Source of the DNA: a virus
Lineage: Duplodnaviria > Caudoviricetes
IMG/VR virus record: IMGVR_UViG_3300027038_000001
Coordinates: 1-57,081 of that record
Reading direction: 5' to 3' (one strand)
DNA: 57,081 nucleotides
Part shown: one piece after another, positions 8,083 to 27,020 of the stretch
Numbering within the stretch: the first letter of the stretch is position 1
Layout of the letters: every line of letters starts with the position of its first letter
The notes under the pieces: model-generated
Told to the model about the DNA's origin: nothing
Seen by the model: only the letters and a program-made list of their open reading frames with translations
The model's database searches: none
Program-made: the position numbers and the translations under genes

Positions 8083-8095
8083 GATGGAGATGAAC

Positions 8096-8797
8096 ATGTC
8101 AAACGAAAACAAGTCATTGGTTCGGTCGGCTGAGAAGACGCTCACTGTCAAGTCCTTGAAGGATCTCGTCCGTGTCCGCACGAGCGAGAATCCGGTACTG
8201 CTGATCGACGTGTCGGGCAGCATGGGCGCTGGGATGCGCAATGGGAAGACGCGTATCCAGGGTCTGCGCGAAGTCGTCGCTGGTCTGCAGGAGAAGCGGC
8301 CCACCACGATGGTGGCGTTCGGTCTGACCGGCGGTGTGCCGGTTCATCCGTTGGAGCCGATTCAATCCAACGAACAGGTGGCGTTCGTTGAGACCGTACC
8401 TGATGCTCAAGGCGGCACTCCGCTCGCCGAAGGAATTGACTTTTGCCGAGCCAATGGGTTCGGCCGATGCGTCGTGATCTCGGATGGTGGCCCCAACGAC
8501 CCACATCGGGCGATGGAGTCGGCCAGAACGTTCGGTGGTCGCATCGATGTCATCTTCGTTGGTGATCCGGGTGATCCGGGTTCCTACTTCCTCGACCAAC
8601 TGGCTCAGGCCACTGGTGGGTCCAGATTCGAAGGCGACCTGAGCGAGGTCAAGGAAATCACCGGCGCGGTGGTGGGCCTGTTGATGGGCGAATCGCTCGA
8701 ACAGTCTGACGACGATGACGATGATGATGAAGACGATGAAGACGATGAGGACGATGAGGACGATGAGGACGAGGACGAAGACGAAGACGACAAGTAG
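8096..8797 (+). CDS. von Willebrand factor A (VWA) domain protein with acidic tail
   Basis: MIDAS motifs LLIDVSGSM, GGTPL and VISDGGPN; poly-D/E C-terminus. Confidence 0.9.
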   Translation: MSNENKSLVRSAEKTLTVKSLKDLVRVRTSENPVLLIDVSGSMGAGMRNGKTRIQGLREVVAGLQEKRPTTMVAFGLTGGVPVHPLEPIQSNEQVAFVETVPDAQGGTPLAEGIDFCRANGFGRCVVISDGGPNDPHRAMESARTFGGRIDVIFVGDPGDPGSYFLDQLAQATGGSRFEGDLSEVKEITGAVVGLLMGESLEQSDDDDDDDEDDEDDEDDEDDEDEDEDEDDK

Positions 8798-9879: not shown

Positions 9880-10102
9880 GAAACTTCCGCCGATGGAACG
9901 TCGGCCCGTCTTCGTCATGTACACCGCGGTGCGTCGCTGCCGGTTTAATCCCTCATTCAGTAGAATGTTGGATCTGCCGCAGTCGCTTCAGATCGATGTC
10001 GTCAATCGTTGGGAGGGACGACACAAAGGACGTGCGTTCGACTTCGACGTCAGTCAGACCAACGTCAGCCGGCCACCGACATCGAAGAGGAAACTTCGAT
10101 GA
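9872..10102 (+). CDS. Hypothetical protein
   Basis: 76 aa; overlaps both neighbours. Confidence 0.45.
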   Translation: MRKKLPPMERRPVFVMYTAVRRCRFNPSFSRMLDLPQSLQIDVVNRWEGRHKGRAFDFDVSQTNVSRPPTSKRKLR

Positions 10103-12398: not shown

Positions 12399-13757
12399 AT
12401 GCACTCCCTTCGACCGCATCAACAGCGGGCCTTGGCCTACGCCGTGCCGCGGAGCCGGATATTCCTTGCCATGGAAATGCGCACAGGAAAGACGCCCGTG
12501 ACGATACGGTGGGCTAAGGCGCGTAATCTTAAACGGATTCTTGTCATCGCTCCATTGACGACATTGAATCCTGGATGGGTTGAAGAACTGGTCGAAGAAC
12601 AGATCAAGGCGAAATACATTCATGTGCTGTCGGAAACTAAGAAGCCGAAACGGCTACAGACGTTGAAGAAGCCTGGATGGCATTTGATCAACTACGAATA
12701 CATTCGACGTAATCCGGAGGTGCTGGAAGCGTTCGATCGCGAGGACGACGGTATCGTGTTGGACGAGAGCACACGTATCCGATCGCCGAAAGCTGGCATC
12801 ACCAAAGTCGTGCTGCGACATACGAGTGTGGAACACCGCGCATTGCTATCTGGAATGCCGAATCCGGAATCGGTTCTGAATTGGTTCACACAGATGGTGT
12901 GGATGAAAGGAGACCTCTGCGGCGTCGACAACTACTGGGCCTTCCGTCAGAAGCTGTTCCGGCCCTCGTGGCCCGGTTCGTGGGATTGGAAGCCACGTCC
13001 GGGTGCGATGGAAAAGATCAAGGCGGATGTCCATCGCAACGTGTTCGTGCTCACAGCCAAGCAAGCCGGCATGGGATCGAAACACGTGTATGAGAAACGC
13101 ATGGTGCCGATGAATCAGCTTCAACAACGTATGCAGAAGGAGATCGTCCGAGACTTCTCATACGGAAAGGATGAAACTAAATGGGCACCAGTGCAGCAGA
13201 CGTGGCTCGCTCGGCTAGCGGGAGGGTTCAGTCCCGACGGGACAGAGCTCGTCTCAGACGCGAAGCTGAAAGAGTTGTTGTCGATTTTGAAAGAAGATTT
13301 GCCGAAGAAAGCTCAGGTCGTGGTCTGGGCTCGATTCCGTTCGGAGATTCGAGGGATCAAACAGTTTCTGAACTCGAAGAAGATCCCGACGACCGCGATG
13401 ACCGGAGCGACTGACCGTGTTCAGCGTCGCATTCGTATCAAGAAATTCCGTCGTGGCAAGTATCGCGTGATAGTGGTGCAGGAGAAGCTCGGTATGTATG
13501 GGTTGAACCTCTCCACCGCGGACACGGACATCTACTATTCGAACATGTGGGAGAACGAAGTTCGGTCGCAGTGCGAGAAGCGAATCGAACACCTCACGAA
13601 GAAGACGCCGCTGTTGCATATCGATCTCATTACACGAGACTCGGTGGACGAAGAGGTCGTGCCTCGGCTCAGGGAGAAGAAGTTGAACGCGAAGATGTTC
13701 CATCTCGTCTTGAAAGGAATGGTTGAACGATGGCGAAGAGTCCATCCGTTAGACTGA
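12399..13757 (+). CDS. SNF2-family SF2 helicase
   Basis: MRTGKT, INYE, LDEST, LSGMP, GLNL, QCEKRIEH. Confidence 0.9.
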   Translation: MHSLRPHQQRALAYAVPRSRIFLAMEMRTGKTPVTIRWAKARNLKRILVIAPLTTLNPGWVEELVEEQIKAKYIHVLSETKKPKRLQTLKKPGWHLINYEYIRRNPEVLEAFDREDDGIVLDESTRIRSPKAGITKVVLRHTSVEHRALLSGMPNPESVLNWFTQMVWMKGDLCGVDNYWAFRQKLFRPSWPGSWDWKPRPGAMEKIKADVHRNVFVLTAKQAGMGSKHVYEKRMVPMNQLQQRMQKEIVRDFSYGKDETKWAPVQQTWLARLAGGFSPDGTELVSDAKLKELLSILKEDLPKKAQVVVWARFRSEIRGIKQFLNSKKIPTTAMTGATDRVQRRIRIKKFRRGKYRVIVVQEKLGMYGLNLSTADTDIYYSNMWENEVRSQCEKRIEHLTKKTPLLHIDLITRDSVDEEVVPRLREKKLNAKMFHLVLKGMVERWRRVHPLD

Positions 13758-15356: not shown

Positions 15357-16394
15357 ATGAAGATCAAAACGAAGAAAGTCATTCCGATGGCGGAAGTGCC
15401 CGCTCGGTTTTATGACCCAGAGCGGGACGGCGTGACCTTTTCTCTTCTTACGACCTTCAAAAACTGTCGAGAGCGCGCACGTCTATTCTTAAACGGATGG
15501 ACGTCGCGCAGCAACAGTCTGGGTATGGTTTTCGGAAGTCTGGCACATGGAGTAAACCAGCAGATCTACGAAGACGTGCGAACTGGAAAGCTGACCGAAC
15601 TTCCAAGCGAGGCCTACATCAAGAAGGCCGCTGCCAAGGTCGAGGCTCTATGGAAGAAAGAGAACCCCAGAGCCGATGCCGACTCGAAGGAATATCTCGA
15701 GTATTCCATGATCCTGTTGGAGGCGGTCATGCCCGCCTACTTTAAGTACTGGAAGAAGGATTTCCAGTTGATCTGGGAACGTGTGGAGACGGTGTTCAAG
15801 ATCCCAATCGAGGTTCCGATGGGAGGAGAACGCAACGTCGTCAAGAAGACGTTCATCCGTGGCAAGATTGACGGGTCGTTCAAACGAAAGGCGAACGGAC
15901 GGCCTCGCCTCTTCGAGACGAAGACCAAGACACGGTTGGGAGAAACCGGAGAAGGGAATCTCGCAGACATCCTTCCGCACGAACTCCAAGTGAACATCTA
16001 CTTGTTGTATCTGTGGTGGGTCGACAAGAAACTACCGGAGGGTGTCCTCTACAACATCATCCGACGACCGAGCCTCCGTCAGAAGAAAAGTGAATCATTG
16101 GTGAAGTTCGCCAGACGAGTGGCGGCGGACATTTCACTACGACCGGAGTTCTACTTCATTCGGTTGGAGATGTTCGTCGAGAAGAAGGATCTCGAGAAGC
16201 AGGAGCTCGAACTTCGAGATCTGGTGTCTGACTTCATCCTGTGGTGGAACGGATTGGCCGGTCACTACAAGAACTCAGACGCGTGTGAGAACAAATACGG
16301 CACCTGTGCGATGTTGCCGATTTGCAGTCGTGGAGATTACACGGGATTCTTCAAGCGAGATACCGTGTTCAGAGAATTGGCCGACGAGCTATAA
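15357..16394 (+). CDS. PD-(D/E)xK (RecB/Cas4-like) exonuclease
   Basis: S.L..FKNC, FGSLAH, VE, RGKIDG, FETKT, QVNIY and C-terminal C..KYGTC...IC. Confidence 0.85.
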   Translation: MKIKTKKVIPMAEVPARFYDPERDGVTFSLLTTFKNCRERARLFLNGWTSRSNSLGMVFGSLAHGVNQQIYEDVRTGKLTELPSEAYIKKAAAKVEALWKKENPRADADSKEYLEYSMILLEAVMPAYFKYWKKDFQLIWERVETVFKIPIEVPMGGERNVVKKTFIRGKIDGSFKRKANGRPRLFETKTKTRLGETGEGNLADILPHELQVNIYLLYLWWVDKKLPEGVLYNIIRRPSLRQKKSESLVKFARRVAADISLRPEFYFIRLEMFVEKKDLEKQELELRDLVSDFILWWNGLAGHYKNSDACENKYGTCAMLPICSRGDYTGFFKRDTVFRELADEL

Positions 16395-16654: not shown

Positions 16655-16923
16655 AAGCGCCGAAAAAACTGACACGTGCGCAACGGGCGCTGCTGTTAGA
16701 AATGGCGGACAGCAAACGCGTCATTCTGATTATGAAGCATTCGAAGGAATGGATGGGTTTGAAATACTCGATCAATTCATTCCCGATTCGACAGTTGCGA
16801 GCGGACATGGTCGCGCGGCTAGCTCGATTGGGTTATCTGCAGATCAACAAACGGGGATTCTACGAACTCACTATCTCGGGAATGTTGGAGGCTTCTTTGG
16901 AGAAGCAACGGAGGCGGAAATGA
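16651..16923 (+). CDS. Small winged-helix-like protein
   Basis: KLTRAQRALL...LARLGYL...YELTISG; ATGA overlaps. Confidence 0.6.
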   Translation: MKAPKKLTRAQRALLLEMADSKRVILIMKHSKEWMGLKYSINSFPIRQLRADMVARLARLGYLQINKRGFYELTISGMLEASLEKQRRRK

Positions 16924-17735
16924 ACGTGGTCGTCATTGGTGGTGGGTTCGTTGGACAATTAGTTCAATGGGCGATACCCGAAGCGCGAATCCTCGATTGG
17001 CGAAATAATGCACCTGCCGATCATTTGGAAACGCGAATTGGTCCTCGGTATCTTTGGGAGCCGATTCCCGGAGTGCCGTCGTCGTCGTTCGACGTGGTGA
17101 CGACGATCGACAATCAGCCACCCACTCTTGAAAGCATTCTGACTTACAAGAAGAAGGTAGGCAAGGAAAATGATGGCGGGAACTGGGATGTACAATTCCG
17201 CCATCATACTACCGGATTTCGATCCCAACTTCCCGTCCCCAGAATCGAATTTGGGAAACGAGTGACTATGATCGACCACCGAAGTCGAGTACTCTGGACA
17301 AACAATCTCGACGTTGTTCATTATGATTGGTTGGTCAGTACGATCCCATTGCCGGCGTTGCTTGATATTTTCGGATCAAGCCACGCATCGTCATTCAGAT
17401 CGCAAGTCATCTACATGACGCGGACACCAATTCCACAGGACGTCATTGGCGACGTCTTGCATATGAATTACGTATCTGACCCACAGACACCGATCTACCG
17501 TGTGACCGACTCTCTTGGAGAACGATTTTCAGAATCGCTGGTAAGGATCGACTCGTCAGCGATCAAGATCATGCCGGGAAAGATCTTCACATATCCAGAA
17601 GCTGAACATCTTCTCAATCAGCTGGGGGCGCTTCGGTGCAAATGCTTCGGGAGATTCGGTACTTGGCGTCCAGACGAATTGGCGCATGAGACGTGGTCAC
17701 TTATCATTGCTTGGAGGGACGAGATCTATGGATGA
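16920..17735 (+). CDS. FAD-dependent oxidoreductase (UDP-galactopyranose mutase/amine oxidase-like fold)
   Basis: N-terminal VVIGGGFVG Rossmann motif, GPRYL, YDWLVSTIPLP, C-terminal FGRFGTW. Confidence 0.75.
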   Translation: MNVVVIGGGFVGQLVQWAIPEARILDWRNNAPADHLETRIGPRYLWEPIPGVPSSSFDVVTTIDNQPPTLESILTYKKKVGKENDGGNWDVQFRHHTTGFRSQLPVPRIEFGKRVTMIDHRSRVLWTNNLDVVHYDWLVSTIPLPALLDIFGSSHASSFRSQVIYMTRTPIPQDVIGDVLHMNYVSDPQTPIYRVTDSLGERFSESLVRIDSSAIKIMPGKIFTYPEAEHLLNQLGALRCKCFGRFGTWRPDELAHETWSLIIAWRDEIYG

Positions 17736-18720
17736 CCTCAAACGGTTGATGGAAGATCAACGTATCTTCAATCGCCAGATCTTCAAACGAAATGGTGCAC
17801 CACCAGAAGCGGTATTGGAGCGGCTACGTCACCTGTCTCTGGGGATGATTGAAGAAAGCATTGAATTCCTTCGAACATTCGAATGGAAGCCGCACAGAAA
17901 GAAGGTGGGGTCGTTGAGCAACCTTGCTCATAGCCACGAAGAGCTGATCGACATGTTCAAGTTCTGGCTGTCGTTGGCTGACTTGACGGACTTTCCGTTG
18001 GATCGTTTAGAGGAGTTGTACCACGCCAAGAGTCGTGTGGTGCGATATCGGTATCAGACCGAATGGATGTCGTCGATCGACCGTCCGTGCGTGGTTGTCG
18101 ATATCGATAATGTCCTCGCCGACTACATCCGTGGTTTCTACAACTGGGCTCAAACTCGAGTTCCAGTTGGATTGACTGCAGATGAAACCGCGGTGCTGCG
18201 CGTTCGTTTGAAAGCGGCGGCAGACGACGGTCGATGGCTTGATGCCGCTGCAGTGGGAATGGAACCAGCTAAGTGGCAATCGATCAAACACGAATTTCGA
18301 AGCACCGGCGGCAAGCTTCTGATACCCGTATTTCCAGACGCACGAGGATTTTTGGAGTGGTGTCGCCTTCGGGGTTGGTTGATCTTACTGATCACAAGTC
18401 GACCGATCGATCAGTATCCAAATATCTTCACAGAGACGATCACGTGGTTGACGGAAGCGAATCTACCGTTTGACCGTCTTTGGTGGGCTGATCGGAAAGC
18501 CGAACGACTTGATATGGGCGGCGTGCCGTTGTCTCAAGTCAAATTCGCGGTTGACGACGATTTGAACTACGTCAATCAATTCGCGAATCGCCAAGTCCGA
18601 ACCTATTGGCTTACACGAAGTGTGCTCCGTATGCAAAGTCATTCGCATATCTTCAGTGTTCGTTCGTTAACCGACGTTCAAAACCATTTCGATGCAGGAG
18701 ATCCACCACCATGGAAATAA
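17728..18720 (+). CDS. Fusion of all-alpha dUTPase/dCTPase-like NTP pyrophosphatase and HAD 5'(3')-deoxyribonucleotidase
   Basis: N-terminal EESIE...WKPHRK...EELIDMFKF; C-terminal VVDIDNVLAD, ITSR, K, VDDD HAD motifs. Confidence 0.85.
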   Translation: MDDLKRLMEDQRIFNRQIFKRNGAPPEAVLERLRHLSLGMIEESIEFLRTFEWKPHRKKVGSLSNLAHSHEELIDMFKFWLSLADLTDFPLDRLEELYHAKSRVVRYRYQTEWMSSIDRPCVVVDIDNVLADYIRGFYNWAQTRVPVGLTADETAVLRVRLKAAADDGRWLDAAAVGMEPAKWQSIKHEFRSTGGKLLIPVFPDARGFLEWCRLRGWLILLITSRPIDQYPNIFTETITWLTEANLPFDRLWWADRKAERLDMGGVPLSQVKFAVDDDLNYVNQFANRQVRTYWLTRSVLRMQSHSHIFSVRSLTDVQNHFDAGDPPPWK

Positions 18721-19967
18721 TTGACGCGAAACATCGACCGCATGCAGTGCACACCGGCGAGAAGCCGACCAACCCGATCACGGAGGGTCCGGAGTCGTTG
18801 CATGTCACGTTGGACCGATGGGGTCCGAAAGACAACCTGTTCACGTCAATGTACGATGCGCTGCAAGCGAACTGGGGCGACTCTCCGAGTCGTACCGTCG
18901 ATCGGAGCACATGCGACGGGTCCTGTCAGAACTGGGAACAGCATCGTACTGGATGGTGCTCGTTGACACCGGACGAACGTGTCTACGTCGAGTCCTGTTT
19001 CGCTGGCAAGACGTTGCAGCAGGTGCTCGAAGGAATTACGTTCGACTTCTGCATCGATGGTGTGACACGAGCGTTCACACACCAAAATGTCCGCACCCGT
19101 GTTGGTGCCGGTTTCATGCAACATGGCGGACGCGACAACGACTGGCGCCACCGTCCGTGGACGATGCCTGAGACGATGCGTCGGATGTGCGAAGCCGACG
19201 ATGCCGCGATCTCGGCCGACCCTGTGGGGTCTGAACTACTTGATGCGTTGGGTTTGAAACATTGCATCACCGATTGGAAGCCGATCAACGCCTATGTCGA
19301 ATCGACCTTCCGATTCGATGGGTTCTCGGACGGCATCAGGGGACGGATCGAACACCACGTCATGAATGCTCGCAAGCTTTACGCTGCGTTGGTCGATGCC
19401 GGCATTCCTTGGCAGGACGCCAGACGGGTGTTGCCGATCGGGATGCAGACCTACATCCACGACCAGTACAACTATCTGGCGTTGTCCGGCGTGTTGGCCA
19501 ATCGGCTCGAACATATCATGGACTGGGAATTCAATTGCGTCGCCCAGCTCATGCTGCGTGAGATCAAGATGAAGTGTCCACCGTTGCTGTCGAAATATCT
19601 TGGCAGTCACAGCGACAAAGCCAAGGCTGCACGGTTTGCCGGTTTGGAGTCTTGGCCTCCGGATCGGAAGTATCCAAGCCCGTACGACGACTGCGCCACT
19701 TGTGGACACGGCGGTAACCACCATCGAAAGTACGACGCCGAAGTGGGTGCGGATGTGCCGCCGGGAGAAGAGGTTTGCTCCGCGTGTGAGAACGAAGGGC
19801 CGAACCTCGCGGTCTCGCCACTACATCGATTTGTTCCGAAGGATCGATTGCCACGGCAACATCGACCAGAGCAGATGCCGTTCTTCGTCTTGCATCCGGA
19901 CAGCATGGCTGGGGGTCCGATCAAATGGATCTCCACCAACGGCGAATACCCACACGACCGGGTATGA
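18711..19967 (+). CDS. thyX: Divergent ThyX-like flavin-dependent nucleotide-modifying enzyme
   Basis: F.IDGVTRAFTHQ.VR, YAALVDAGIPWQDARRVLP and WE motifs match ThyX; the signature is altered to RTRVGAGFMQHGGRD; Cys-rich extensions. Confidence 0.8.
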   Translation: MEIIDAKHRPHAVHTGEKPTNPITEGPESLHVTLDRWGPKDNLFTSMYDALQANWGDSPSRTVDRSTCDGSCQNWEQHRTGWCSLTPDERVYVESCFAGKTLQQVLEGITFDFCIDGVTRAFTHQNVRTRVGAGFMQHGGRDNDWRHRPWTMPETMRRMCEADDAAISADPVGSELLDALGLKHCITDWKPINAYVESTFRFDGFSDGIRGRIEHHVMNARKLYAALVDAGIPWQDARRVLPIGMQTYIHDQYNYLALSGVLANRLEHIMDWEFNCVAQLMLREIKMKCPPLLSKYLGSHSDKAKAARFAGLESWPPDRKYPSPYDDCATCGHGGNHHRKYDAEVGADVPPGEEVCSACENEGPNLAVSPLHRFVPKDRLPRQHRPEQMPFFVLHPDSMAGGPIKWISTNGEYPHDRV

Positions 19968-20257
19968 CGACTTTCACATTCCGTGGGAGTCGCTTCTTGG
20001 AACGAGCTTTGCTCGAGGCTCAGTCCAAGTTTCAACAACGAATCGAGCAGGAGCTACGAACCACCATGGCGAAAGCAGCAAAGAAAGCAGCAGCGAAAGT
20101 CGACAAGAAAGCGGCGGCAAAAGCGGCACGAGTCGCAAAGTCGGCCGCACGCGTTCAGAAGCGCATCGACAAGATCCAGAAGCGCATCGACAAGTTGACC
20201 GATAAAAAGGTCAAGTTGGAGAAGAAGCGCGATCTCGTCGGCGGCAAGAAGAAGTAG
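19964..20257 (+). CDS. Lys/Ala-rich histone H1-like small basic protein
   Basis: MAKAAKKAAAKVDKKAAAKAAR...; start is 19964 (ATGA overlap) or 20066. Confidence 0.6.
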   Translation: MTTFTFRGSRFLERALLEAQSKFQQRIEQELRTTMAKAAKKAAAKVDKKAAAKAARVAKSAARVQKRIDKIQKRIDKLTDKKVKLEKKRDLVGGKKK

Positions 20258-20266: not shown

Positions 20267-21040
20267 ATGGCTGTGCGCGTGACGACAAGAAAGTTCGCAG
20301 TGCTGATTCCATCCAAGGGTCGACCTGAGGTGCTTCTGAAAACGCTGCGTGCACAGCCGTTTCTGAATCGTCCTTCGACTTACATTGGCATCGAAAATGC
20401 CGAAGAAAAGAAGTATCGAAAGGTGCAGAAAGAGTTCAAACGTATCACCTGGGTCAGGTATAACAACCCTGTTGCCAGCGGCACCCTGGCCAGGGAAGAA
20501 TTACGGAAAGCCGCAACCGCCGTGGGATACGAACGCTACGTAGTCACCGACGACAATACGCGTTTCAGTCAGAAGAGTCTACTGACTTTGGTGCATGCGT
20601 CGTTCGTGTATCCGATTCAGCCATGCATCGTCGCCGGTGTGCACGGCACGGCGGAACACTTCGATGCGGGTCGAATCAAACGCACATTGGAGACCCATGA
20701 CGGTCTTCGATTCTACAAGAAGCGTTCAGCAATGTTCTGGGCGCTCCCACACAAGTTCTACTCCAAGATGCGTTACACGGTTGACGAAGGTTGCATGGAC
20801 GATGTGCAGGTCACCTTCGCTGCGTTCGACCAAGGCATCACCGCACAGGTGGTGTGCATGGATGCCCCATTCGCGAAGAAGCGATACAATCCGGGAGGCT
20901 ACGGAGGAATCAACGAACGTGTTCGGAAGGTTGGATTGGCGCTGGTTCGATTCTCCAAGACCCATCCGGATTACATGGCAAAGGTTCGCGTGACCTTTCC
21001 TTGGACACAAATCGAGAAGACACTGAAGGAGAAGTCATGA
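20267..21040 (+). CDS. GT-A fold glycosyltransferase (TET-associated/GREB1-like type)
   Basis: VLIPSKGR, AR, VVTDDN, MDDV, NPGG motifs; AGGAGG RBS. Confidence 0.75.
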   Translation: MAVRVTTRKFAVLIPSKGRPEVLLKTLRAQPFLNRPSTYIGIENAEEKKYRKVQKEFKRITWVRYNNPVASGTLAREELRKAATAVGYERYVVTDDNTRFSQKSLLTLVHASFVYPIQPCIVAGVHGTAEHFDAGRIKRTLETHDGLRFYKKRSAMFWALPHKFYSKMRYTVDEGCMDDVQVTFAAFDQGITAQVVCMDAPFAKKRYNPGGYGGINERVRKVGLALVRFSKTHPDYMAKVRVTFPWTQIEKTLKEKS

Positions 21041-22176
21041 AGGTTCGAGTACCAACAAAACCGTTCGTTCAAAATCCGTGGTCCATCCAACTCGAAGTAG
21101 TTGAGGGTTGCAACTACTCGTGCTGGTTCTGCGGCATCCATTCTATCCGTTCAAAGTCAACTCCAGGAGTAGGCTGGAACGATTTCCGCGAGATGCCGGT
21201 CGAACTCGTCAAGGAGATGTTCAAGGAAACGCGGACATGGCTCCCCGGCGGTGTGCGCGTCGAGTTGGACAATCACGGCGAGCCAACGTTGCACAAGCGA
21301 TTCCCAGATGTGGTCGCCGCGATTCGTCGCGATCCGAAGGCCCACATCCAGCTGCAGACCAACGGATCGCAGATCGAGGAGTGGAAGGTCTTTGAGGAAC
21401 TGGTTACGGAGTGGTTTGCTCGTGGCCTCAATCTCCTTGCGATCAACGCCTACAAACGTTGGTGGGGCAAGCCGCACGAGGAACACAAGACCCGCTACGA
21501 TATGTTCATGGCCTACGCAAAGCAGTACGCCAAGAAACATCCGAACATCCATCGTGTTGTGGATCACTACTATGACAACCCCGATCATCTGTCGATCTAT
21601 CGACGCTATCCGACCAAACTTCAACAGATTTTTGTGTTGGACGATCTCGGGGAAGTCAATGCCAAGAAGCGAACGGAGTCTGGCCGCCCCGTCTCCAAGG
21701 ACATCAACAATGAAGCCGGCAACTCTCCGGAGAAACCGTTACAGAATCTCCTTGGCCAGGAACCGATTACCGAGCCATTGCAGAAGAAGTGCACACGGCC
21801 CTTCCGCGAACTGAACATGGGCTACAACGGTGTCGTCCCGGTTTGCTGCTACGATTGGTCAACGCAGATCCCTGTCGGCAAGTTTCCCGATCAGTCATTA
21901 CAGACGATCTGGGAATCGACGCAACTCAATGCGATCCGAGAGTTGTTGTACCGGAAGAATCGCAACATGACTCCGTGTTCCGTCTGCAGCTACAACGGTG
22001 GATGGAGGCAGGGTCTCATCAAGGCTCCCGGTCTAAAGGCATCGGATGAGGAACTGCAACATGTTTTGGCGGATCATCTGAAGACAATGCGTGGGTACGT
22101 GTTCCCGACCGCACCAGTTGAAGTGGCTGGCACAGTGATTCCGATTCAGTCACTTCGAATCAAGAAGAGGGAGTAG
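21037..22176 (+). CDS. Radical SAM protein with SPASM/twitch domain
   Basis: CNYSCWFC (CxxxCxxC), HGEPTLH, QTNG; C-terminal CTRPF...G.V.VCC.D...C..C. Confidence 0.92.
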   Translation: MKVRVPTKPFVQNPWSIQLEVVEGCNYSCWFCGIHSIRSKSTPGVGWNDFREMPVELVKEMFKETRTWLPGGVRVELDNHGEPTLHKRFPDVVAAIRRDPKAHIQLQTNGSQIEEWKVFEELVTEWFARGLNLLAINAYKRWWGKPHEEHKTRYDMFMAYAKQYAKKHPNIHRVVDHYYDNPDHLSIYRRYPTKLQQIFVLDDLGEVNAKKRTESGRPVSKDINNEAGNSPEKPLQNLLGQEPITEPLQKKCTRPFRELNMGYNGVVPVCCYDWSTQIPVGKFPDQSLQTIWESTQLNAIRELLYRKNRNMTPCSVCSYNGGWRQGLIKAPGLKASDEELQHVLADHLKTMRGYVFPTAPVEVAGTVIPIQSLRIKKRE

Positions 22177-22179: not shown

Positions 22180-22383
22180 ATGGAATGGGATAGTTGGCCG
22201 AACGAAGGGTATCCTTGTGCTGAATGTGGACGTCGTGGCAAGTGTACGGAGGAATGCAAGCTTCGGCAAAACGATCCGGCTGATCAGGGACCACGATGTC
22301 TAGACTGTGGGCAAACCGGAGGTGCGCATATCGCTTCTCCGCCAGCGTGTCCTCAACTAACACGACAACGAGCAGAGGAGTAG
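22180..22383 (+). CDS. Small Cys-rich hypothetical protein
   Basis: CAEC..C...C and CLDC..H..C; GGGAG RBS. Confidence 0.5.
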   Translation: MEWDSWPNEGYPCAECGRRGKCTEECKLRQNDPADQGPRCLDCGQTGGAHIASPPACPQLTRQRAEE

Positions 22384-22385
22384 TC

Positions 22386-23267
22386 ATGGCCGTAGTCAAG
22401 AAAGCGAAACCTGGGATCAAGAAGAAGAGTAAGGAAAAGGAGGTGGCGCCGGAAGAGAAGTTTCGTCTGCCGACGGAGCTGAGTGAACCGAACGACAACC
22501 TCGGTGCATACACATGGCTGATTTTCGGCGAGAAGAAGATCGGTAAGACGACGCTCACGTCGTTGTTCGGCAAGACGGTTCACCTATTCACCGAGCCGGG
22601 AGGCAAAGCGCTCCGTCTGTATCCAGTCGTGGTCGACGATTGGAAGACGTTCAAGAAGGCCGTGCGTGCCTTGAAGAAAGACGACACGTTCGACACCGTG
22701 GTCGTCGACATCGTGGACAAACTCTACCCGATGGTGGAGGATTACACGTGTGAGAAGTTGGTCATCAACGACCTCGCTGAAGAGGAGTGGGGCAAGGGAT
22801 GGCGCGAGAATCGCAAGGAGTTTGAACGTGTATTCGGCGATCTGCTCAACATCGGCAAGGGAGTGATCTTTATCTCACATGCCCAGGAGCAGGAAGTCGA
22901 AACACGGGACGGCAAGAACTACGACCGTATGATGCCGACCATGCACAAGAAGATGCGCGACTTGGTCGAAGGCTCCGTGGACATCTGGGCCTACTACACA
23001 TACGATCGGCAGCGCCGTGTCCTTCAAATTCTTGGCGACGACCACGTCTCTGCGGGACATCGATTGCAGGGACGGTTTCAGACACCAGACGGGCAGCCCA
23101 TTCGTCGAATTGATATGGGCCGCTCGGCGGAAGAGGGCTACCGCAACGTGCGGCTGGCCTTCAACAACAAGTATGTTCCGAAGAAGTCATCGGACATTGA
23201 CCAACCCGAGGAGGAGACCACCACAGAGAAGAAGACAAAGTCCAAGTTCAAGGTTCGTCGTAGCTAA
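22386..23267 (+). CDS. Sak4-like (AAA_24) ATPase/annealase
   Basis: LIFGEKKIGKTT, DTVVVD, WGKGW, VIFISH; GAGGAG RBS. Confidence 0.85.
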   Translation: MAVVKKAKPGIKKKSKEKEVAPEEKFRLPTELSEPNDNLGAYTWLIFGEKKIGKTTLTSLFGKTVHLFTEPGGKALRLYPVVVDDWKTFKKAVRALKKDDTFDTVVVDIVDKLYPMVEDYTCEKLVINDLAEEEWGKGWRENRKEFERVFGDLLNIGKGVIFISHAQEQEVETRDGKNYDRMMPTMHKKMRDLVEGSVDIWAYYTYDRQRRVLQILGDDHVSAGHRLQGRFQTPDGQPIRRIDMGRSAEEGYRNVRLAFNNKYVPKKSSDIDQPEEETTTEKKTKSKFKVRRS

Positions 23268-24471: not shown

Positions 24472-24912
24472 ATGACTGTCGACGAAATGAGCTTGCAGAT
24501 GGAACAATTCCTCCATGACTGCAATCTGTTACAGTGGAAGAAGAACAAGGACTACCACCCAGATGGGGTGGCCATGTTGGAGATTCTCCAGACGGCGTTC
24601 GAAACCGGCATCACGGTCGAACAAGACCTCTGGGCGAGGACACGGAAACAAACGTCGGCGTTGCGCCGGTTCGTAATTGAAGGACATGTGGAGTCCGAGT
24701 CGCCCGAATCGCGAATGACCGACATTGCGGTCTACATGTCCATGATGGCCTTCTGGGTGGCCAATCGAAAACAGATTCTCGAAGATGCATTGTTCTGGTT
24801 GTCAAAGCACCGACATTGCGAAGACCCGCCGACCTGTGGCACTCCGAATCACTTCTGCGATCGCTGTGCATTCGTCACTTGGTTGAGCGACTATGCTAGT
24901 ACGAGTCGCTAG
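24472..24912 (+). CDS. DUF1599/Nmad1-like (MazG-fold) nucleotide-modification-associated protein
   Basis: LLQWKKNKDY...K...R...ES.ESRMTDIAVY pattern; C-terminal Cys cluster. Confidence 0.55.
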   Translation: MTVDEMSLQMEQFLHDCNLLQWKKNKDYHPDGVAMLEILQTAFETGITVEQDLWARTRKQTSALRRFVIEGHVESESPESRMTDIAVYMSMMAFWVANRKQILEDALFWLSKHRHCEDPPTCGTPNHFCDRCAFVTWLSDYASTSR

Positions 24913-27019
24913 CGGACTCAAGGTCCGTGGTAATATAATCTCGACGGACTCTGAAACCACCGGCATGTTGCCGTGGGGTGAGAGCCGTCGGGTGAAGTAT
25001 GACTTCGGAGACAAGAAGAAGCCGCAGATCGAATATCGACGTATCGCTCCGGCGGCGGCGTTCGTGTGGACCTTCTGTGATCAGGAAGGTAACACGGACT
25101 ACCTGCGAGCGAAAGTCGATCCGATCACCCGAGAAGTGAAGTGGGATCCGAAGCAGCTTCGACTTGTTCACGATTTCTGGGCGAACGACAAGATCACGAA
25201 GATCGGACACAACCCCAGATTCGATGTGATGATGGCCGAGGCCTCTGGCGCGAAGATCCGAGGCACAGTCATTGACACCCAGATCGTGGCCCACGTAGCG
25301 ACGAGCGGCCAAGAGTTGACGTATGCGTTGAAACAGTTGTGCAAGAAATGGTTCAACTATTCAGACGGGGACGAACGCGCGTTGTTGAACGAGGTCAATA
25401 AACTTCGACACCGCGCCAAGAAAGATCGTTGGTCGATTGCGACCAAGGAATTTGCCGGAACGAAGCCCCAGAAGGCCGACATGTGGTTGGCGTCTGACAA
25501 ACTTCTGAAAGATTACGGAGTGGGCGACGCCATTCGAGCGATGCTCGTTTACATGGCGTGGTGGGAAGAGATTCAACGAGACAAGCGCACGAAGGAAGTC
25601 TGCGACCGAGAACACCGACTCTTCTGGGTCTTGAAAGATATGGAGACGACTGGCGTCCGTATCTATCGACCACGTGTGCGGAGTCTCATCAAGTTCTACG
25701 ACGACTATCGTGCAAAGCAACGCACCATAGCCGAGCAGCACGGCGGCAAGGGTTTGAATTTCAAGTCCACACCGCAGATGTCGAAGGTGTTCTACGAAGA
25801 TCGACGTCATGTGCCGGTCTACACGCAAACGTTCAATGAGAAGCTCGGACGTTTCAACTATTCATTGAACGGCGAGACACTGTTGAAGATGGGGCAGGGG
25901 TATGTCATCCAACCGAACGATTGGTTTGAGATGGCTCGGAAAGACGACCAGCTTCCGATTGGCGCGAAGTGGGTTCGCAACAAGAAGACGGGTGCGCGCT
26001 ATATTAAGGTCCCGCCCGACCCATTGGCGAAAGCCGTACTGGAACACAATGCGGCACAGCAAACAAACAATTCATTCCTTCACGTCTACCGGAAATACTG
26101 GACGAAGGAGAGTCCCGGAGTCTGGGTGTTGCATCCCAGCTTCAAACAGACCGGTGCGATCACCGGACGACTGTCGTGCTCTGACCCGAACCTGCAACAG
26201 GTAGCGTCAGAGACCACCGGACGTCGCAAGGCAGATATTCAGTCGCGGCCGCGAGAAGCGTTCGGGCCGCGTCCCGGCCACATATGGTATCTACCAGACT
26301 ACTCGCAGATTGAGGTGTGGCTGTTCGCCTACCTCTCTGGCGAGAAGGCGATGCAAGAAGCGTTGATGTCGGGAAGAGACTTCCACGGCAGCATTGCGAA
26401 GCAGGTGTTCGGAGAGCGCGATGACTTCGACGATCTTGCGGACTACTACCGCAAGTGTGCGAAGCTGATCATGTTCTGTAAGCTGTATGGGGGCGGCGTC
26501 CCCAAGGTAGCGAAGTTACTGAAGTCCGATCTCGATACGGCCGCAGAATTCGTTGCGAAATACGAATTGGAACTCCCTGGCGTGAAGCGATTCATGTCGG
26601 AGTTGATCAAGGAAGCCACCGACAAGGGAGTCATCTGGAGTCCTTTCGGTCGTCGGTATACGTTCGACAAGAGCTACGCCTATCGTGCGGTCAACTATCT
26701 TATCCAAGGCACCGCGGCTGATGTGATGAAGAATGGGTTGATCAACGTGTGGCAGATGTTGAAGGATACTCCGGAGTGGAAGGGTGTCAAGCTGTTGGTC
26801 ACCGTGCACGACGAAGTGATCCTCGAGGTTCCGAAACATCTGCACTGTATCGATCTGATGAAAGACGTGATCCGTGCGATGCAGATGGACAGCAAGCGGT
26901 TGGGTCTCCCGGTTCGCTTGCCAGTAGAGATGAAGATTGCAAAGACTCGGTGGTCGCGTCCCACCAAGATTAAACTACCCCCAGAGATTGTTGGCGGTCC
27001 CGTTCGAAAGGCAGCGTGA
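24893..27019 (+). CDS. polA: Family A DNA polymerase with 3'-5' exonuclease
   Basis: DSETTG, HNPRFD, YGVGD exonuclease motifs; TGRLSCSDPNLQQ; DYSQIE; R...K...F...YG; NYLIQGTAAD; VHDE. Confidence 0.95.
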   Translation: MLVRVASGLKVRGNIISTDSETTGMLPWGESRRVKYDFGDKKKPQIEYRRIAPAAAFVWTFCDQEGNTDYLRAKVDPITREVKWDPKQLRLVHDFWANDKITKIGHNPRFDVMMAEASGAKIRGTVIDTQIVAHVATSGQELTYALKQLCKKWFNYSDGDERALLNEVNKLRHRAKKDRWSIATKEFAGTKPQKADMWLASDKLLKDYGVGDAIRAMLVYMAWWEEIQRDKRTKEVCDREHRLFWVLKDMETTGVRIYRPRVRSLIKFYDDYRAKQRTIAEQHGGKGLNFKSTPQMSKVFYEDRRHVPVYTQTFNEKLGRFNYSLNGETLLKMGQGYVIQPNDWFEMARKDDQLPIGAKWVRNKKTGARYIKVPPDPLAKAVLEHNAAQQTNNSFLHVYRKYWTKESPGVWVLHPSFKQTGAITGRLSCSDPNLQQVASETTGRRKADIQSRPREAFGPRPGHIWYLPDYSQIEVWLFAYLSGEKAMQEALMSGRDFHGSIAKQVFGERDDFDDLADYYRKCAKLIMFCKLYGGGVPKVAKLLKSDLDTAAEFVAKYELELPGVKRFMSELIKEATDKGVIWSPFGRRYTFDKSYAYRAVNYLIQGTAADVMKNGLINVWQMLKDTPEWKGVKLLVTVHDEVILEVPKHLHCIDLMKDVIRAMQMDSKRLGLPVRLPVEMKIAKTRWSRPTKIKLPPEIVGGPVRKAA

Positions 27020-27020
27020 G

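What the first reader, a model, noticed from the sequence alone, without database searches (positions are those of the whole stretch)
18711..19967. ThyX homologue with a rewritten catalytic signature and Cys-rich add-ons
Seen: the canonical RHRxxSxxQ/ExSxRY signature reads RTRVGAGFMQHGGRD (His to Thr, active-site Ser to Gly, Tyr to Asp), and the NxR motif after ARxVLP reads NYL. The protein is 418 aa, against roughly 200-250 aa for typical ThyX, with CDGSC..H..C and CATCGH..HH...CSAC segments. Inference: flavin binding is kept but substrate or chemistry differs, for example stopping at hydroxymethyl, hydroxylating, or acting on dCMP.
Basis: partly seen in the sequence, partly recalled or inferred. 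Interest (0 to 1): 0.75.

Follow-up and report, generated by a model that had tools for sequence, protein, structure and literature searches.

The report
Non-canonical phage ThyX paired with flavoprotein
A phage gene related to the flavin-dependent thymidylate synthase ThyX has lost the residues that enzyme needs and always sits beside a second flavoprotein, a pairing also found in phages recently reported to carry sugar-decorated thymine, so it may make an unusual DNA base rather than ordinary thymidylate.

Summary
Window 18711-19967 (+) encodes a 418-aa ThyX-fold protein reading RTR..QHGGRD and NYL where canonical ThyX has RHR..S.RY and N.R.

The changes are not a one-off. They are invariant in a family of at least 299 protein clusters from uncultured phages. 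The residues aligned with T. maritima H53, H59, H79, S88, Y91 and R165 are all replaced. Q75, R78, R80, R90, R147 and R174 are kept.

The window is a complete 57-kb phage genome with no ThyA and no second Thy1 gene.

The main new result is a conserved gene partner: a UDP-galactopyranose-mutase/renalase-like FAD protein (16920-17735). It lies upstream of non-canonical ThyX-likes in distant viral lineages (16 of 27 loci) and in cultured Pbunavirus, Wifcevirus, Vibrio and Rhizobium phages. It is near none of 80 canonical viral ThyX loci.

A 2025 preprint reports sugar-type thymidine hypermodification in Pbunavirus DNA and names no biosynthetic genes.

- Best reading (0.5): the pair installs the C5 carbon of a thymidine replacement, most likely 5-hydroxymethyl-dUMP.
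- Main rival (0.33): a divergent dTMP synthase with a dedicated reductase.

The parts
18711..19967 (+). Non-canonical ThyX-like protein, 418 aa (P0001)
   Evidence: Thy1 domain and ThyX fold. TIGR02170 equivalog cut-off not reached (53.3 vs 87.9 bits).
19092..19136 (+). Rewritten ThyX motif, residues 128-142 (RTRVGAGFMQHGGRD)
   Evidence: Invariant or near-invariant in the family. Aligned to RHR..S.RY of solved ThyX.
19470..19478 (+). N-Y-L (residues 254-256) in place of the canonical N-x-R
18909..18959 (+). C-x3-C..H..C cluster (residues 67-83) in a variable loop
   Evidence: Not conserved across the family.
19692..19793 (+). CxxC..CxxC zinc-ribbon-like insert (residues 328-361) in the C-terminal extension
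   Evidence: C328 and C331 in >=90% of rows; segment absent in at least 3 of 34. Modelled as short strands.
16920..17735 (+). FAD protein (271 aa from Met58 of ORF 16749-17735), UDP-galactopyranose-mutase/PPO/renalase-like fold; conserved partner of the ThyX-like gene
   Evidence: fold. (co-occurrence).
17728..18720 (+). Fusion of a dimeric-dUTPase/MazG-like domain with an NT5C-like HAD phosphatase (ORF opens at 17686; homologues start near Met15)
   Evidence: dUTPase_2 in 12 of 26 homologues, NT5C in 4 of 26; the window's own copy is below E 0.01. The HAD motifs DxD, T, K and DD are invariant.
19925..20257 (+). Lys/Ala-rich 110-aa ORF overlapping the 3' end of the ThyX-like gene; not seen in related loci
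   Evidence: 0 of 51 loci. Reality uncertain.
20267..21040 (+). GT-A-type glycosyltransferase resembling TET-associated glycosyltransferase; accessory
   Evidence: TAGT below cut-off, 6 of 22 homologues. (present in 9 of 16 related genomes).
21037..22176 (+). Radical SAM / SPASM-twitch protein; accessory, subclade only
   Evidence: 4 of 51 loci.

Best explanation
The gene encodes a member of a large, phage-specific, non-canonical branch of the ThyX family. It still binds a uracil 5'-mononucleotide but no longer works as a self-sufficient, folate- and NADPH-dependent dTMP synthase.

It operates as a two-gene unit with the upstream UGM/renalase-like FAD protein. It is fed and shielded by the dUTPase-like/NT5C-like fusion, which would make dUMP and destroy the competing canonical pyrimidine nucleotide.

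The unit installs the C5 carbon substituent of a thymidine replacement at the nucleotide level. The most likely product is 5-hydroxymethyl-dUMP: methylene transfer through a flavin N5 adduct, followed by capture of the exocyclic methylene by water instead of reduction.

After incorporation into DNA, the base is decorated in some lineages by the accessory glycosyltransferase and radical SAM enzyme. In this window these sit between the ThyX-like gene and Sak4.

Shown here: the fold, the residue losses and retentions, the gene pairing and its distribution, and the absence of ThyA and TET/JBP.

Inferred: the substrate, the product, the role of the FAD protein, and any DNA modification in this uncultured phage.
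For: 1. Residue pattern. The substrate-side residues Q125, R128, R130, R141, R238 and R265 are kept. The residues aligned with H53, H59, H79, S88, Y91 and R165 are replaced, and the replacements are invariant within the family.

2. Role of the lost residues. PMC11940539 (passages read) says:
- S88 and Y91 are strictly conserved and critical.
- A Y91 mutation slows flavin oxidation about 1000-fold.
- H53 stacks on folate/flavin and hydrogen-bonds Y91.

3. Partner gene in the window's lineage. The FAD protein lies upstream in 35 of 51 family loci by tblastn (many loci are cut short) and in 13 of 16 related genome records, 7 of the 8 that are >=90% complete.

4. Partner gene in other lineages.
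- A profile of the FAD protein finds an ORF upstream of the ThyX-like gene, on the same strand, in 16 of 27 loci whose ThyX-likes are only 25-45% identical to the query alignment A6, the sister clade. Most lie within about 2 kb; two are 4-5.5 kb away.
- A homologue occurs in 362 cultured phage records.
- It is next to or within about 2 kb of an R(T/N)R-type ThyX-like lacking the H59, H79 and Y91 equivalents (by eye, the H53 equivalent too) in Pseudomonas phage 14-1, Vibrio phage VA-RY-3, Rhizobium phage RHph_TM2_3B and Escherichia phage Bas100.
- hhalign gives family vs 14-1 gp60 probability 97.6%, E 4.5e-12, and FAD protein vs gp66 probability 96.4%, E 1.2e-9.

5. Control. None of 80 viral loci chosen for the canonical VRHR pattern has an FAD-protein homologue within 5 kb.

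6. Phenotype anchor. The bioRxiv preprint PMC12191111 (section 8 read) reports novel thymidine-derived nucleosides of 362 and 390 U in Pbunavirus F8 and 14-1. They replace about a quarter of T in a TG context and are described as sugar-alcohol and cyclic-pentose derivatives. The preprint names no biosynthetic genes. The 14-1 genome has no ThyA and one Thy1 gene.

7. Absence of alternatives. No ThyA in 17 of 17 genomes of the window's lineage, exactly one Thy1 each, and no Tet_JBP.

8. Neighbours. The dUTPase_2 + NT5C-type HAD fusion has all four HAD motifs invariant. A TAGT-like glycosyltransferase is present in 9 of 16 related genomes, and a radical SAM gene in the window's subclade.

9. Precedent. 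ThyA homologues have turned into flavin-bound 5-hydroxy-dCMP synthases (PMC13326640, abstract and passages). A Thy1 paralogue of phage SP-15 was hypothesised in print to be a hydroxymethyluridylate synthase (PMC5977210, passages).
Against: - It is the only thymidylate-synthase homologue in these phages. That is also what one expects of an ordinary phage dTMP synthase paired with a dUTPase.
- In Pbunavirus about three quarters of T stays canonical, and the modification is motif-specific. At least one DNA-level enzyme of unknown identity is therefore required, and the ThyX-like protein need not be part of that pathway.
- No dNMP kinase, 5-hmdU DNA kinase or aGPT-Pplase3 was found in the window. 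Pfam covered only 21 of the roughly 75 ORFs.
- The relation to the Pbunavirus proteins is remote (28% and 21% identity in the hhalign alignments). The HAD proteins are not demonstrably orthologous.
- The Pbunavirus-type proteins keep S/T at the S88 position and keep R165, so the window's family is more derived and may differ in function.
- The glycosyltransferase stays below Pfam's TAGT cut-off and is absent from 3 of the 8 genomes that are >=90% complete.
- SP-15 has no FAD-protein homologue by the A3 profile.
- Nothing is known about the DNA of this uncultured phage. Only assembled contigs of sediment and groundwater runs exist.
Confidence: 0.5

Rival explanations
1. It is a divergent but genuine dTMP synthase. 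The lineage moved flavin reduction (and perhaps folate handling) to a separate NAD(P)H-dependent flavoprotein, the upstream FAD protein. The residues that canonical ThyX uses for its own NADPH oxidase and gating steps (H53, H79, Y91, S88) then became dispensable. The dUTPase-like domain simply supplies dUMP.
For: - It is the sole TS homologue in 17 of 17 genomes of the lineage and in phage 14-1.
- All arginines and the glutamine on the substrate side are kept.
- The FAD protein resembles renalase, which binds NAD(P)H (ranks 36-46).
- Pbunavirus DNA is still about 75% canonical T.
- dUTPase plus ThyX is a common phage pairing, for example a MazG-like gene near the ThyX-like gene in Gordonia phage NovaSharks.
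Against: - An NT5C-type deoxyribonucleotidase fused to the dUTPase-like domain would waste dUMP or dTMP.
- The top structural matches of the FAD protein are UDP-galactopyranose mutases, not reductases.
- S88 and Y91 act in the methylene-transfer step, not only in reduction.
- The pair co-occurs with glycosyltransferase and radical SAM genes and with phages shown to carry modified T.
- No RTR-type enzyme has a solved structure or an activity that my searches found.
Confidence: 0.33
2. It acts on another substrate or does another reaction: C5 hydroxylation (as in the ThyA-derived 5-hydroxy-dCMP synthases), modification of dCMP or UMP (as PolB does for UMP), or modification of uracil or thymine already in DNA. 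In the DNA case the zinc ribbon and the conserved C-terminal extension would serve as a nucleic-acid-binding module.
For: - There are precedents for TS-family neofunctionalisation.
- The 120-aa conserved C-terminal extension with a zinc ribbon and several new invariant Arg/His/Trp residues (R146, H147, R148, W145) has no counterpart in solved ThyX.
- The TG-motif specificity in Pbunavirus demands a DNA-level enzyme.
Against: - The residue aligned with R174 is invariant in 150 of 150 relatives, and the phosphate-side arginines are kept. This argues for a uracil mononucleotide (the roles are recalled).
- The zinc ribbon is absent from some members and from the Pbunavirus-type proteins.
- The ThyX active site is buried at subunit interfaces (recalled).
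Confidence: 0.12
3. It is a catalytically dead ThyX relic kept for a structural or regulatory role.
For: Several residues reported as critical are lost.
Against: - Sequence conservation is extreme exactly in the remodelled active-site loop, with a run of invariant residues Q137-R148 across 34 members at 54-76% overall identity.
- The substrate-side arginines are conserved.
- The gene is translationally coupled to its neighbours in the replication module.
Confidence: 0.03

Closest known systems
Canonical flavin-dependent thymidylate synthase ThyX (e.g. Thermotoga maritima TM0449, M. tuberculosis ThyX; PF02511, TIGR02170)
   Same: Same fold (Foldseek E about 1e-9, TM by target 0.72-0.76) and a Thy1 domain. 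The residues aligned with Q75, R78, R80, R90, R147, N163 and R174 are conserved.
   Different: It is 418 aa against about 220-260. The residues aligned with H53, H59, H79, S83, S88, Y91, R165 and N169 are replaced. It carries a new invariant block, QHGGRDNDWRHR, and a conserved 120-aa C-terminal extension with a zinc ribbon. It fails the TIGR02170 equivalog cut-off. It is always accompanied by a separate FAD protein, which was found near none of 80 canonical viral ThyX loci.
Pbunavirus / Wifcevirus 'FAD-dependent thymidylate synthase' with its upstream hypothetical FAD protein (Pseudomonas phage 14-1 gp60 + gp66; Escherichia phage Bas100 genes 0049 + 0051)
   Same: Same gene pair in the replication module with a HAD phosphatase gene beside it. 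The motif is R-T-R, and His is lost at the H59 and H79 positions and Tyr at the Y91 position. By eye the H53 position (five residues before the conserved Glu) is not His either. Homology is significant for both proteins.
   Different: Identity is only 28% and 21%. These proteins are about 270-305 aa without the zinc-ribbon extension. They keep S/T at the S88 position and keep the N-x-R arginine. The HAD protein is of the PNKP type and is not fused to a dUTPase-like domain. They have no detectable homologue of the window's glycosyltransferase. Function is untested. A preprint reports hypermodified T in these phages.
ThyA-family dUMP 5-hydroxymethyltransferase and the thymidine hypermodification pathways of phages M6, ViI, PaMx11, PhiW-14 (PMC8989533)
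   Same: The proposed logic is the same: a nucleotide-level C5 carbon, then decoration on DNA. Accessory enzyme classes overlap (flavin-dependent enzyme, radical SAM).
   Different: The fold is unrelated (ThyA, PF00303, absent here). No aGPT-Pplase3 was found. The FAD protein here is UGM/renalase-like, not MnmC1-like as PaMx11 gp47 is described.
PolB, the ThyX paralogue of polyoxin biosynthesis (UMP/dUMP C5-methylase; PDB 4p5a/4p5b)
   Same: It is a neofunctionalised ThyX-fold enzyme. It is a structural match at E 5.9e-9, TM by target 0.70, and is described in PMC5954106 (passages).
   Different: PolB is bacterial, about 240 aa, and still a methylase. It has no partner flavoprotein that I know of. 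Its motif state was not examined here.
Bacillus phage SP-15 Thy1 paralogue gp130, hypothesised hydroxymethyluridylate synthase (PMC5977210)
   Same: It is a Thy1-family protein of 413 aa in a phage whose T is partly replaced by a C5-alkylated uracil. The idea that a ThyX-type protein makes something other than dTMP is in print for it, untested.
   Different: It is extremely divergent (Thy1 26.4 bits, no R-x-R motif recognisable). No FAD-protein homologue was found in SP-15. SP-15 also has a second, more canonical Thy1 gene.

Membership tests
ThyX, flavin-dependent thymidylate synthase (EC 2.1.1.148) | Thy1 domain / ThyX fold | tested here: met
   Pfam PF02511 scores 64.9 bits against a cut-off of 24.8. 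Foldseek top hits are all ThyX.
ThyX, flavin-dependent thymidylate synthase (EC 2.1.1.148) | Scores above the NCBIfam equivalog model TIGR02170 | tested here: not met
   53.3 bits against a cut-off of 87.9. Only the C-terminal 80 positions are matched.
ThyX, flavin-dependent thymidylate synthase (EC 2.1.1.148) | ThyX signature R-H-R..S..(Q/E).S.R-Y | tested here: not met
   It reads R-T-R..G..Q.G.R-D. The change is invariant in the family.
ThyX, flavin-dependent thymidylate synthase (EC 2.1.1.148) | Folate/flavin-stacking His (T. maritima H53) and the Y91-H53 pair | tested here: not met
   H53 aligns with T101 and Y91 with D142. The roles are taken from PMC11940539.
ThyX, flavin-dependent thymidylate synthase (EC 2.1.1.148) | Nucleotide-binding Arg/Gln set (Q75, R78, R90, R147, R174) | tested here: met
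   Q125, R128, R141, R238 and R265 are conserved. R265 is invariant in 150 of 150 relatives. The roles of these residues are recalled, not from a call.
ThyX, flavin-dependent thymidylate synthase (EC 2.1.1.148) | Makes dTMP from dUMP, CH2-THF and NAD(P)H; binds FAD; homotetramer | not testable with these tools
The oligomer was not modelled.
Phage module: UGM/renalase-like FAD protein + non-canonical ThyX-like (Pbunavirus type; defined in this report) | FAD-protein gene upstream of the ThyX-like gene on the same strand | tested here: met
   Window 16920-17735 lies upstream of 18711-19967. The same arrangement is seen.
Phage module: UGM/renalase-like FAD protein + non-canonical ThyX-like (Pbunavirus type; defined in this report) | ThyX-like lacks His at the H53, H59 and H79 positions and Tyr at the Y91 position | tested here: met
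Phage module: UGM/renalase-like FAD protein + non-canonical ThyX-like (Pbunavirus type; defined in this report) | Virion DNA carries a modified thymidine | not testable with these tools
   It is reported only for Pbunavirus F8 and 14-1 (preprint). For the window, only assembled contigs exist.
Known thymidine hypermodification pathway (ThyA-type hydroxymethylase, 5-hmdU DNA kinase, aGPT-Pplase) | ThyA-family dUMP hydroxymethyltransferase | tested here: not met
   PF00303 is absent from the window and from 16 related genomes, and the control genomes rang.
Known thymidine hypermodification pathway (ThyA-type hydroxymethylase, 5-hmdU DNA kinase, aGPT-Pplase) | aGPT-Pplase / 5-hmdU DNA kinase | tested here: inconclusive
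   aGPT-Pplase3 (PF18746) was not found, but the control rang nowhere. The other Pplase clades and the kinase were not searched by model.
TET-associated glycosyltransferase (PF20691), for the neighbour at 20267-21040 | Scores above Pfam's gathering threshold | tested here: not met
   20.5 bits against 27.5. 6 of 22 homologues match at E<=0.01, best E 7.5e-5. The DDN motif is invariant.

The most novel reading that the evidence does not exclude
The non-canonical ThyX-like enzymes have given up folate and use flavin N5 chemistry to join an aldehyde or aldose carbon directly to C5 of dUMP. The partner, which resembles UDP-galactopyranose mutase (an enzyme I recall as working through a covalent flavin-N5-sugar iminium), would deliver or open the sugar, or keep the flavin reduced. 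The products would be C-C linked polyhydroxyalkyl or C-glycosyl deoxyuridylates.

By my own arithmetic, the 362 U and 390 U nucleosides reported for Pbunavirus are isomeric with 5-(1-deoxypentitol-1-yl)-dU and a 5-hexosyl-dU C-glycoside. Mass alone therefore cannot separate this from O-linked derivatives of 5-hmdU.

Two reference titles seen in PMC5977210 say that the five-carbon chain of SP-15's dihydroxypentyl-uracil takes label from ribose and is made at the triphosphate level. SP-15 carries a divergent Thy1 paralogue.
Probability: 0.12. Interest if true: 0.95.

Novelty: new variant of a known kind. Interest (0 to 1): 0.8.

Why it matters
ThyX is textbook as a one-protein, one-reaction enzyme and an antibiotic target. 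This report finds a very large, almost entirely viral branch: 1838 clusters at 50% identity match the family profile at E<=1e-3, and only 20 of the nearest 150 sequences keep RHR. That branch has dropped the residues considered essential and has acquired an obligate-looking flavoprotein partner.

If the pair makes a thymidine replacement, two things follow:
- It would be the first flavin-dependent (ThyX-type) entry into DNA hypermodification.
- It would name candidate genes for the modification just reported in Pbunaviruses. These are among the phages most used for Pseudomonas therapy, and the preprint's authors note that such phages lack known modification genes.

If instead the pair is only a split dTMP synthase, it would still revise how the ThyX reaction can be organised, and would show that S88, Y91 and H53 are dispensable. 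Either way, hundreds of 'thymidylate synthase' annotations in phage genomes rest on an untested assumption.

Tried and rejected
Nothing came from earlier notes.
- **Complex prediction** of the ThyX-like protein with the FAD protein gave no verdict: score 0.00, controls not run. It says nothing either way.
- **Sequencing runs.** Only Logan contigs of four sediment and groundwater runs of one study were found (a possible source of the record), plus one 5% share. There are no raw reads, so no signal of base modification could be sought, and read laying was not used.
- **Close cultured relatives.**
  - tblastn of P0001 found only 23-28% identical actinophage ThyX-likes of R-Q-R type.
  - P0124 and P0197 gave nothing above about 31% identity.
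  - The window's own FAD protein found nothing in cultured phages. A homologue from a distant locus was needed.
- **FAD-protein scan of viral contigs** with the family profile returned essentially the same contigs as the ThyX-like scan, so it gave no independent test.
- **Sequence searches of neighbours against PDB** were uninformative. The bL17 hits of the fusion protein look like chance.
- **Pfam guesses.** PF18745 and PF18744 were meant as aGPT-Pplase clades but turned out to be SNAD2 and SNAD1, so they are irrelevant.
- **The glycosyltransferase profile** has no similarity to 14-1 gp67 or Bas100_0052.
- **The fusion-protein profile** against 14-1 gp58 is not significant.
- **ESM Atlas** on the C-terminal extension gave scores below 0.8, and the Atlas holds no model of the protein.
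- **ORF 15357-16394** was considered as a nucleotide kinase and rejected. By eye it carries a D..E-x-K motif, a QxxxY motif and a C-terminal Cys cluster like Cas4/RecB nucleases. This is a motif reading only; Pfam and PHROGs found nothing.
- **My own error.** I first assigned H53 to G108. Recounting the tagged PDB chain showed H53 aligns with T101 and H59 with G108.
- **Literature.** None returned a paper on the function of RTR-type ThyX proteins or on the FAD-protein partner. Supplementary files were not opened.


Full report
**1. What is there**

The window is a complete virus record of 57,081 bp with direct terminal repeats. On the + strand it carries a replication module:
- an ATP-dependent DNA ligase (10009-11358);
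- an SNF2-type helicase (12399-13757);
- a Sak4-like annealing protein (22296-23267);
- a family A DNA polymerase (24893-27019).

Large ORFs (up to 1217 aa) fill the - strand; none was annotated here.

The finding's ORF runs from 18711 to 19967 and encodes 418 aa (P0001).

**2. It is a ThyX-fold protein**

- Pfam Thy1 matches residues 91-290 at E 1.1e-17.
- An AlphaFold2 model built on 150 relatives is very confident, with pLDDT 95.2 and pTM 0.93.
- Its best PDB matches are all ThyX, plus the ThyX paralogue PolB, with TM by target about 0.7 and TM by query about 0.4. About half of the protein is therefore extra.
- No viral predicted structure covers the whole architecture either: best TM by query is 0.48.
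- It fails NCBI's thyX equivalog model, 53.3 against 87.9 bits.

**3. The rewritten active site is a family trait**

- There are 299 clusters (90% identity level) at E<=1e-3. The best 120 are 54-75% identical, most 370-460 aa long (340-510 in all, apart from one 308-aa partial), and many sit on contigs of 50-78 kb.
- In 34 aligned members the block THQ.VR(T/A/S)R.GAGFMQHGGRDNDWRHR, the DAGIPWQDARR block, R265, DWE and a C-terminal P..H....Q.PF..L.P......G...W..TNG..P block are invariant or nearly so.

A profile alignment to solved ThyX chains places the residues as follows. The PDB chain has 12 tag residues, which I counted off, and one search was used to re-check.

| T. maritima residue | Family residue | State |
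|---|---|---|
| Q75 | Q125 | kept |
| R78 | R128 | kept |
| R80 | R130 | kept |
| R90 | R141 | kept |
| R147 | R238 | kept |
| N163 | N254 | kept |
| R174 | R265 | kept |
| H53 | T101 | replaced |
| H59 | G108 | replaced |
| H79 | T129 | replaced |
| S83 | G134 | replaced |
| S88 | G139 | replaced |
| Y91 | D142 | replaced |
| R165 | L256 | replaced |
| N169 | G260 | replaced |

A 2025 structural paper (PMC11940539, passages read) says:
- S88 and Y91 are strictly conserved and critical, and are candidates for acid catalysis at the flavin carbinolamine.
- A Y91 mutation slows flavin oxidation about 1000-fold.
- H53 stacks on folate or on reduced flavin and hydrogen-bonds Y91.

All three are gone here, together. 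The nucleotide side of the pocket is intact.

**4. The Cys/His clusters**

- The first cluster (residues 67-83) lies in a variable loop and is not conserved.
- The second is a near-conserved CxxC..CxxC ribbon inside the C-terminal extension, but it is absent from at least 3 of 34 members.
- I read both as structural add-ons, not catalytic sites.

**5. The family sits in a large non-canonical radiation**

- A profile search of 1.84 billion representatives gave 1838 clusters at E<=1e-3, 301 at E<=1e-10 and 41 at E<=1e-30.
- I aligned 150 sequences: 30 of the window's family and 120 of those representatives, so the set is biased towards the query. The residue at the H79 position is T in 75, A in 21, H in 20, Q in 11 and S in 9.
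- 112 of the 150 lack RHR, an aromatic residue at the Y91 position, and both upstream histidines.
- On a FastTree tree of the core (149 rows, 158 columns; quick method, so deep branches are not to be trusted), the window's family falls in a clade of 53 rows with local support 98, none of which has RHR. Most rows with the full canonical signature cluster together elsewhere.

**6. Genome context in the window's lineage**

Across 51 related viral loci, tblastn with the window's proteins gave these counts:

| Window gene | Loci with a match (of 51) |
|---|---|
| Sak4-like gene | 50 |
| dUTPase-like/HAD fusion | 40 |
| FAD protein | 35 |
| ORF 15357-16394 | 33 |
| Glycosyltransferase | 26 |
| Radical SAM gene | 4 |

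- Many of these loci are truncated.
- The ThyX-like gene is followed within 400 bp by Sak4 in 41 of 50 loci. The 2.3-kb insert with the glycosyltransferase and radical SAM genes is peculiar to the window's subclade.
- In 16 related genome records plus the window there is no ThyA, exactly one Thy1 gene each and no Tet_JBP (the control rang nowhere).
- The glycosyltransferase is in 9 of 16 records, 5 of the 8 that are >=90% complete.
- The FAD protein is in 13 of 16 records, 7 of those 8.
- The three genes at 16920-17735, 17728-18720 and 18711-19967 overlap at their ends, so they are probably co-translated.

**7. The neighbours**

*Fusion protein.*
- Its N-terminal half matches dUTPase_2 in 12 of 26 homologues.
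- Its C-terminal half matches NT5C (5'(3')-deoxyribonucleotidase) in 4 of 26 and generic HAD models in others.
- The window's own copy stays below E 0.01.
- All four HAD motifs are invariant.

*FAD protein.*
- It starts at Met58 of its ORF.
- It has a GxGxxG Rossmann start.
- It is modelled with pLDDT 92.7.
- Its best PDB matches are eukaryotic UDP-galactopyranose mutases (TM by query 0.64-0.69), followed by protoporphyrinogen oxidase and renalase.
- The ESM Atlas gives the same family picture.

*Glycosyltransferase.*
- It resembles TET-associated glycosyltransferase and a PHROG of hydroxymethylcytosine glucosyltransferases, but below Pfam's threshold.

**8. The decisive turn: the FAD protein travels with non-canonical ThyX-likes far beyond this lineage**

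- A scan with the sister-clade alignment brought 27 loci outside the window's family, whose ThyX-likes are 25-45% identical to that alignment.
- A profile built only from the window lineage's FAD proteins found an ORF upstream of the ThyX-like gene, on the same strand, in 16 of these 27 loci. Many abut the ThyX-like gene, for example L119 4850-5842 against 5842-6588.
- Two of the 11 negatives have less than 1.6 kb of upstream sequence.
- These ThyX-likes read ..WEF.. and R-T-R..QQ.QR(V/S/T).D.
- The FAD protein of L119 then found 362 cultured phage records: 292 Pseudomonas (Pbunavirus), 27 Escherichia (Wifcevirus among them), plus Serratia, Rhizobium, Xanthomonas, Pantoea, Vibrio and Ralstonia.

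I inspected four of these:

| Phage | Arrangement |
|---|---|
| Pseudomonas phage 14-1 | gp66 (FAD protein), gp60 ('FAD-dependent thymidylate synthase'), gp58 (HAD_PNKP) |
| Vibrio phage VA-RY-3 | the two genes adjacent |
| Rhizobium phage RHph_TM2_3B | 2.2 kb apart with a homing endonuclease between |
| Escherichia phage Bas100 | FAD-protein gene, one ORF, ThyX-like gene, HAD gene |

- All four ThyX-likes have R-T-R or R-N-R, Phe after the conserved Glu, and Ala, Ile or Val at the Y91 position.
- Homology to the window's proteins is significant by hhalign: 97.6% and 96.4% probability.
- Negative control: none of 80 viral loci selected for the canonical VRHR pattern has an FAD-protein homologue within 5 kb, using a broader profile. 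A simple regex confirms R-H-R..S.R-Y/F in 44 of the 80 and fails to parse 29.
- These counts are not corrected for relatedness.

**9. Link to a phenotype**

The bioRxiv preprint PMC12191111 (abstract, introduction passages and section 8 read) reports the following for Pbunavirus F8 and 14-1:
- Their DNA, thought unmodified, resists enzymes whose sites contain TG.
- It yields novel nucleosides of 362 U (F8) and 390 U (14-1).
- These are interpreted as thymidine derivatives replacing about a quarter of T, a tetrose sugar-alcohol derivative and a cyclic aldopentose derivative.

The preprint stresses that such phages lack known modification genes. It does not mention thymidylate synthase, flavin, mutase, gp60 or gp66. 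Phage 14-1 has no ThyA and a single Thy1 gene.

The BASEL paper PMC11990801 (passages) notes 'considerable resistance to restriction' of Wifcevirus phages without explaining it.

My last literature search found only the preprint linking Pbunavirus with hypermodified thymidine.

**10. How it most likely works**

Established knowledge of ThyX, as summarised in PMC8989533 (discussion passage) and PMC11940539:
- Reduced flavin takes the methylene from CH2-THF at N5.
- The polarised uracil C5 attacks it.
- The exocyclic methylene that results is reduced by the flavin.

In known thymidine hypermodification the carbon is installed by a ThyA-type hydroxymethylase. The base is then sculpted on DNA by enzyme classes that include flavin-dependent lyases and radical SAM isomerases.

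My best reading (0.5) has four parts:
- The non-canonical ThyX-like plus its FAD partner is the flavin-type counterpart of that first step. It most simply yields 5-hm-dUMP.
- The dUTPase-like domain supplies dUMP.
- The NT5C-like domain removes the competing canonical nucleotide.
- The glycosyltransferase and radical SAM enzyme are lineage-specific decorators.

The steps after 'binds a uracil mononucleotide and a flavin' are inference.

**11. Rivals**

- *Split dTMP synthase (0.33).* A dTMP synthase that has outsourced flavin reduction to the FAD protein explains the sole-TS status and the 75% canonical T in Pbunavirus. It is the main rival.
- *Another substrate or reaction, or action on DNA (0.12).* The invariant R265 and the kept phosphate-side arginines make this less likely.
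- *A dead enzyme (0.03).* This is contradicted by the extreme conservation of the remodelled loop.

**12. Most novel reading not excluded (0.12)**

- The family has lost the folate-stacking histidine.
- Its partner resembles an enzyme I recall as working through a covalent flavin-N5-sugar iminium.
- The pair could therefore join a sugar-derived carbon directly to C5.
- By my arithmetic the reported 362 and 390 U are isomeric with a 5-(1-deoxypentitol-1-yl)-dU and a 5-hexosyl-dU, so mass alone does not exclude this.
- SP-15, whose T is partly replaced by 5-(4',5'-dihydroxypentyl)uracil, carries a very divergent Thy1 paralogue that its authors hypothesised to be a hydroxymethyluridylate synthase (PMC5977210, passages).
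- Two titles in that paper's reference list state that the side chain takes label from ribose and is made at the triphosphate level. I saw the titles only.
- SP-15 gp130 does not share the window family's motifs, and SP-15 has no FAD-protein homologue by my profile.

**13. Novelty and limits**

- Nothing I could search describes the function of RTR-type ThyX proteins or their flavoprotein partner.
- The idea that a Thy1 paralogue might be a hydroxymethylase is in print for SP-15 only, untested.
- I file the protein as a new variant of a known kind. It is a ThyX-fold protein that fails the family's signature and equivalog tests, and it belongs to a conserved two-flavoprotein phage module not described before.
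- All functional statements await assays.
- Supplementary files of the cited papers were not seen. They may hold gene lists that bear on the Pbunavirus pathway.

Noticed in passing
window 15357-16394 (+): A 345-aa ORF conserved upstream of the module in 33 of 51 related loci. It has no Pfam or PHROG hit. By eye it shows D..E-x-K and QxxxY motifs and a C-terminal Cys cluster, like Cas4/RecB-family exonucleases. It probably partners the Sak4-like annealing protein.
   Followed up: partly
window 19925-20257 (+): A 110-aa ORF rich in Lys/Ala repeats overlaps the last 43 nt of the ThyX-like gene. It was found in none of the 51 related loci. It may be a small DNA-binding protein or not a gene at all.
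   Followed up: no
L012 1945-3556 and L050 854-3034: Two related loci carry two paralogous copies of the TAGT-like glycosyltransferase in tandem, which suggests stepwise glycosylation in some relatives.
   Followed up: no
L135 6187-6942 (Vibrio phage VA-RY-3): A sulfotransferase-family protein (Sulfotransfer_3, 30.4 bits against a cut-off of 27) lies two genes downstream of the FAD-protein/ThyX-like pair, in front of an RNase T-like exonuclease and the DNA polymerase. Its fold class is related to P-loop kinases (recalled), so it might act on a hydroxymethyl base.
   Followed up: no
L137 7195-7878 (Escherichia phage Bas100): A FabG-like short-chain reductase is annotated right after the ThyX-like and HAD genes. 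Phage SP-15's list of candidate modification genes also includes an 'acyl carrier protein reductase' next to gene 130.
   Followed up: no
L053 2833-3933 and L054 2833-3960 (Mycobacterium phage PLot gp68, Gordonia phage NovaSharks gp84): The actinophage 'ThyX-like thymidylate synthases' are also non-canonical: R-Q-R, Phe in place of Tyr91, about 370 aa with a Cys-rich C-terminal extension. No FAD-protein gene is annotated nearby. They form a third type whose function is equally untested.
   Followed up: partly
P0011: One family member of 510 aa carries an extra PF00550 (phosphopantetheine attachment / acyl carrier) domain according to the precomputed Pfam column.
   Followed up: no
window 8084-8797 (+) and 26937-29237 (+): There is a weak VWA-domain protein (21.8 bits, below the cut-off) and a 766-aa protein with no Pfam hit directly after the DNA polymerase. 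The latter is conserved in 8 of 51 loci and may be the primase/helicase.
   Followed up: no
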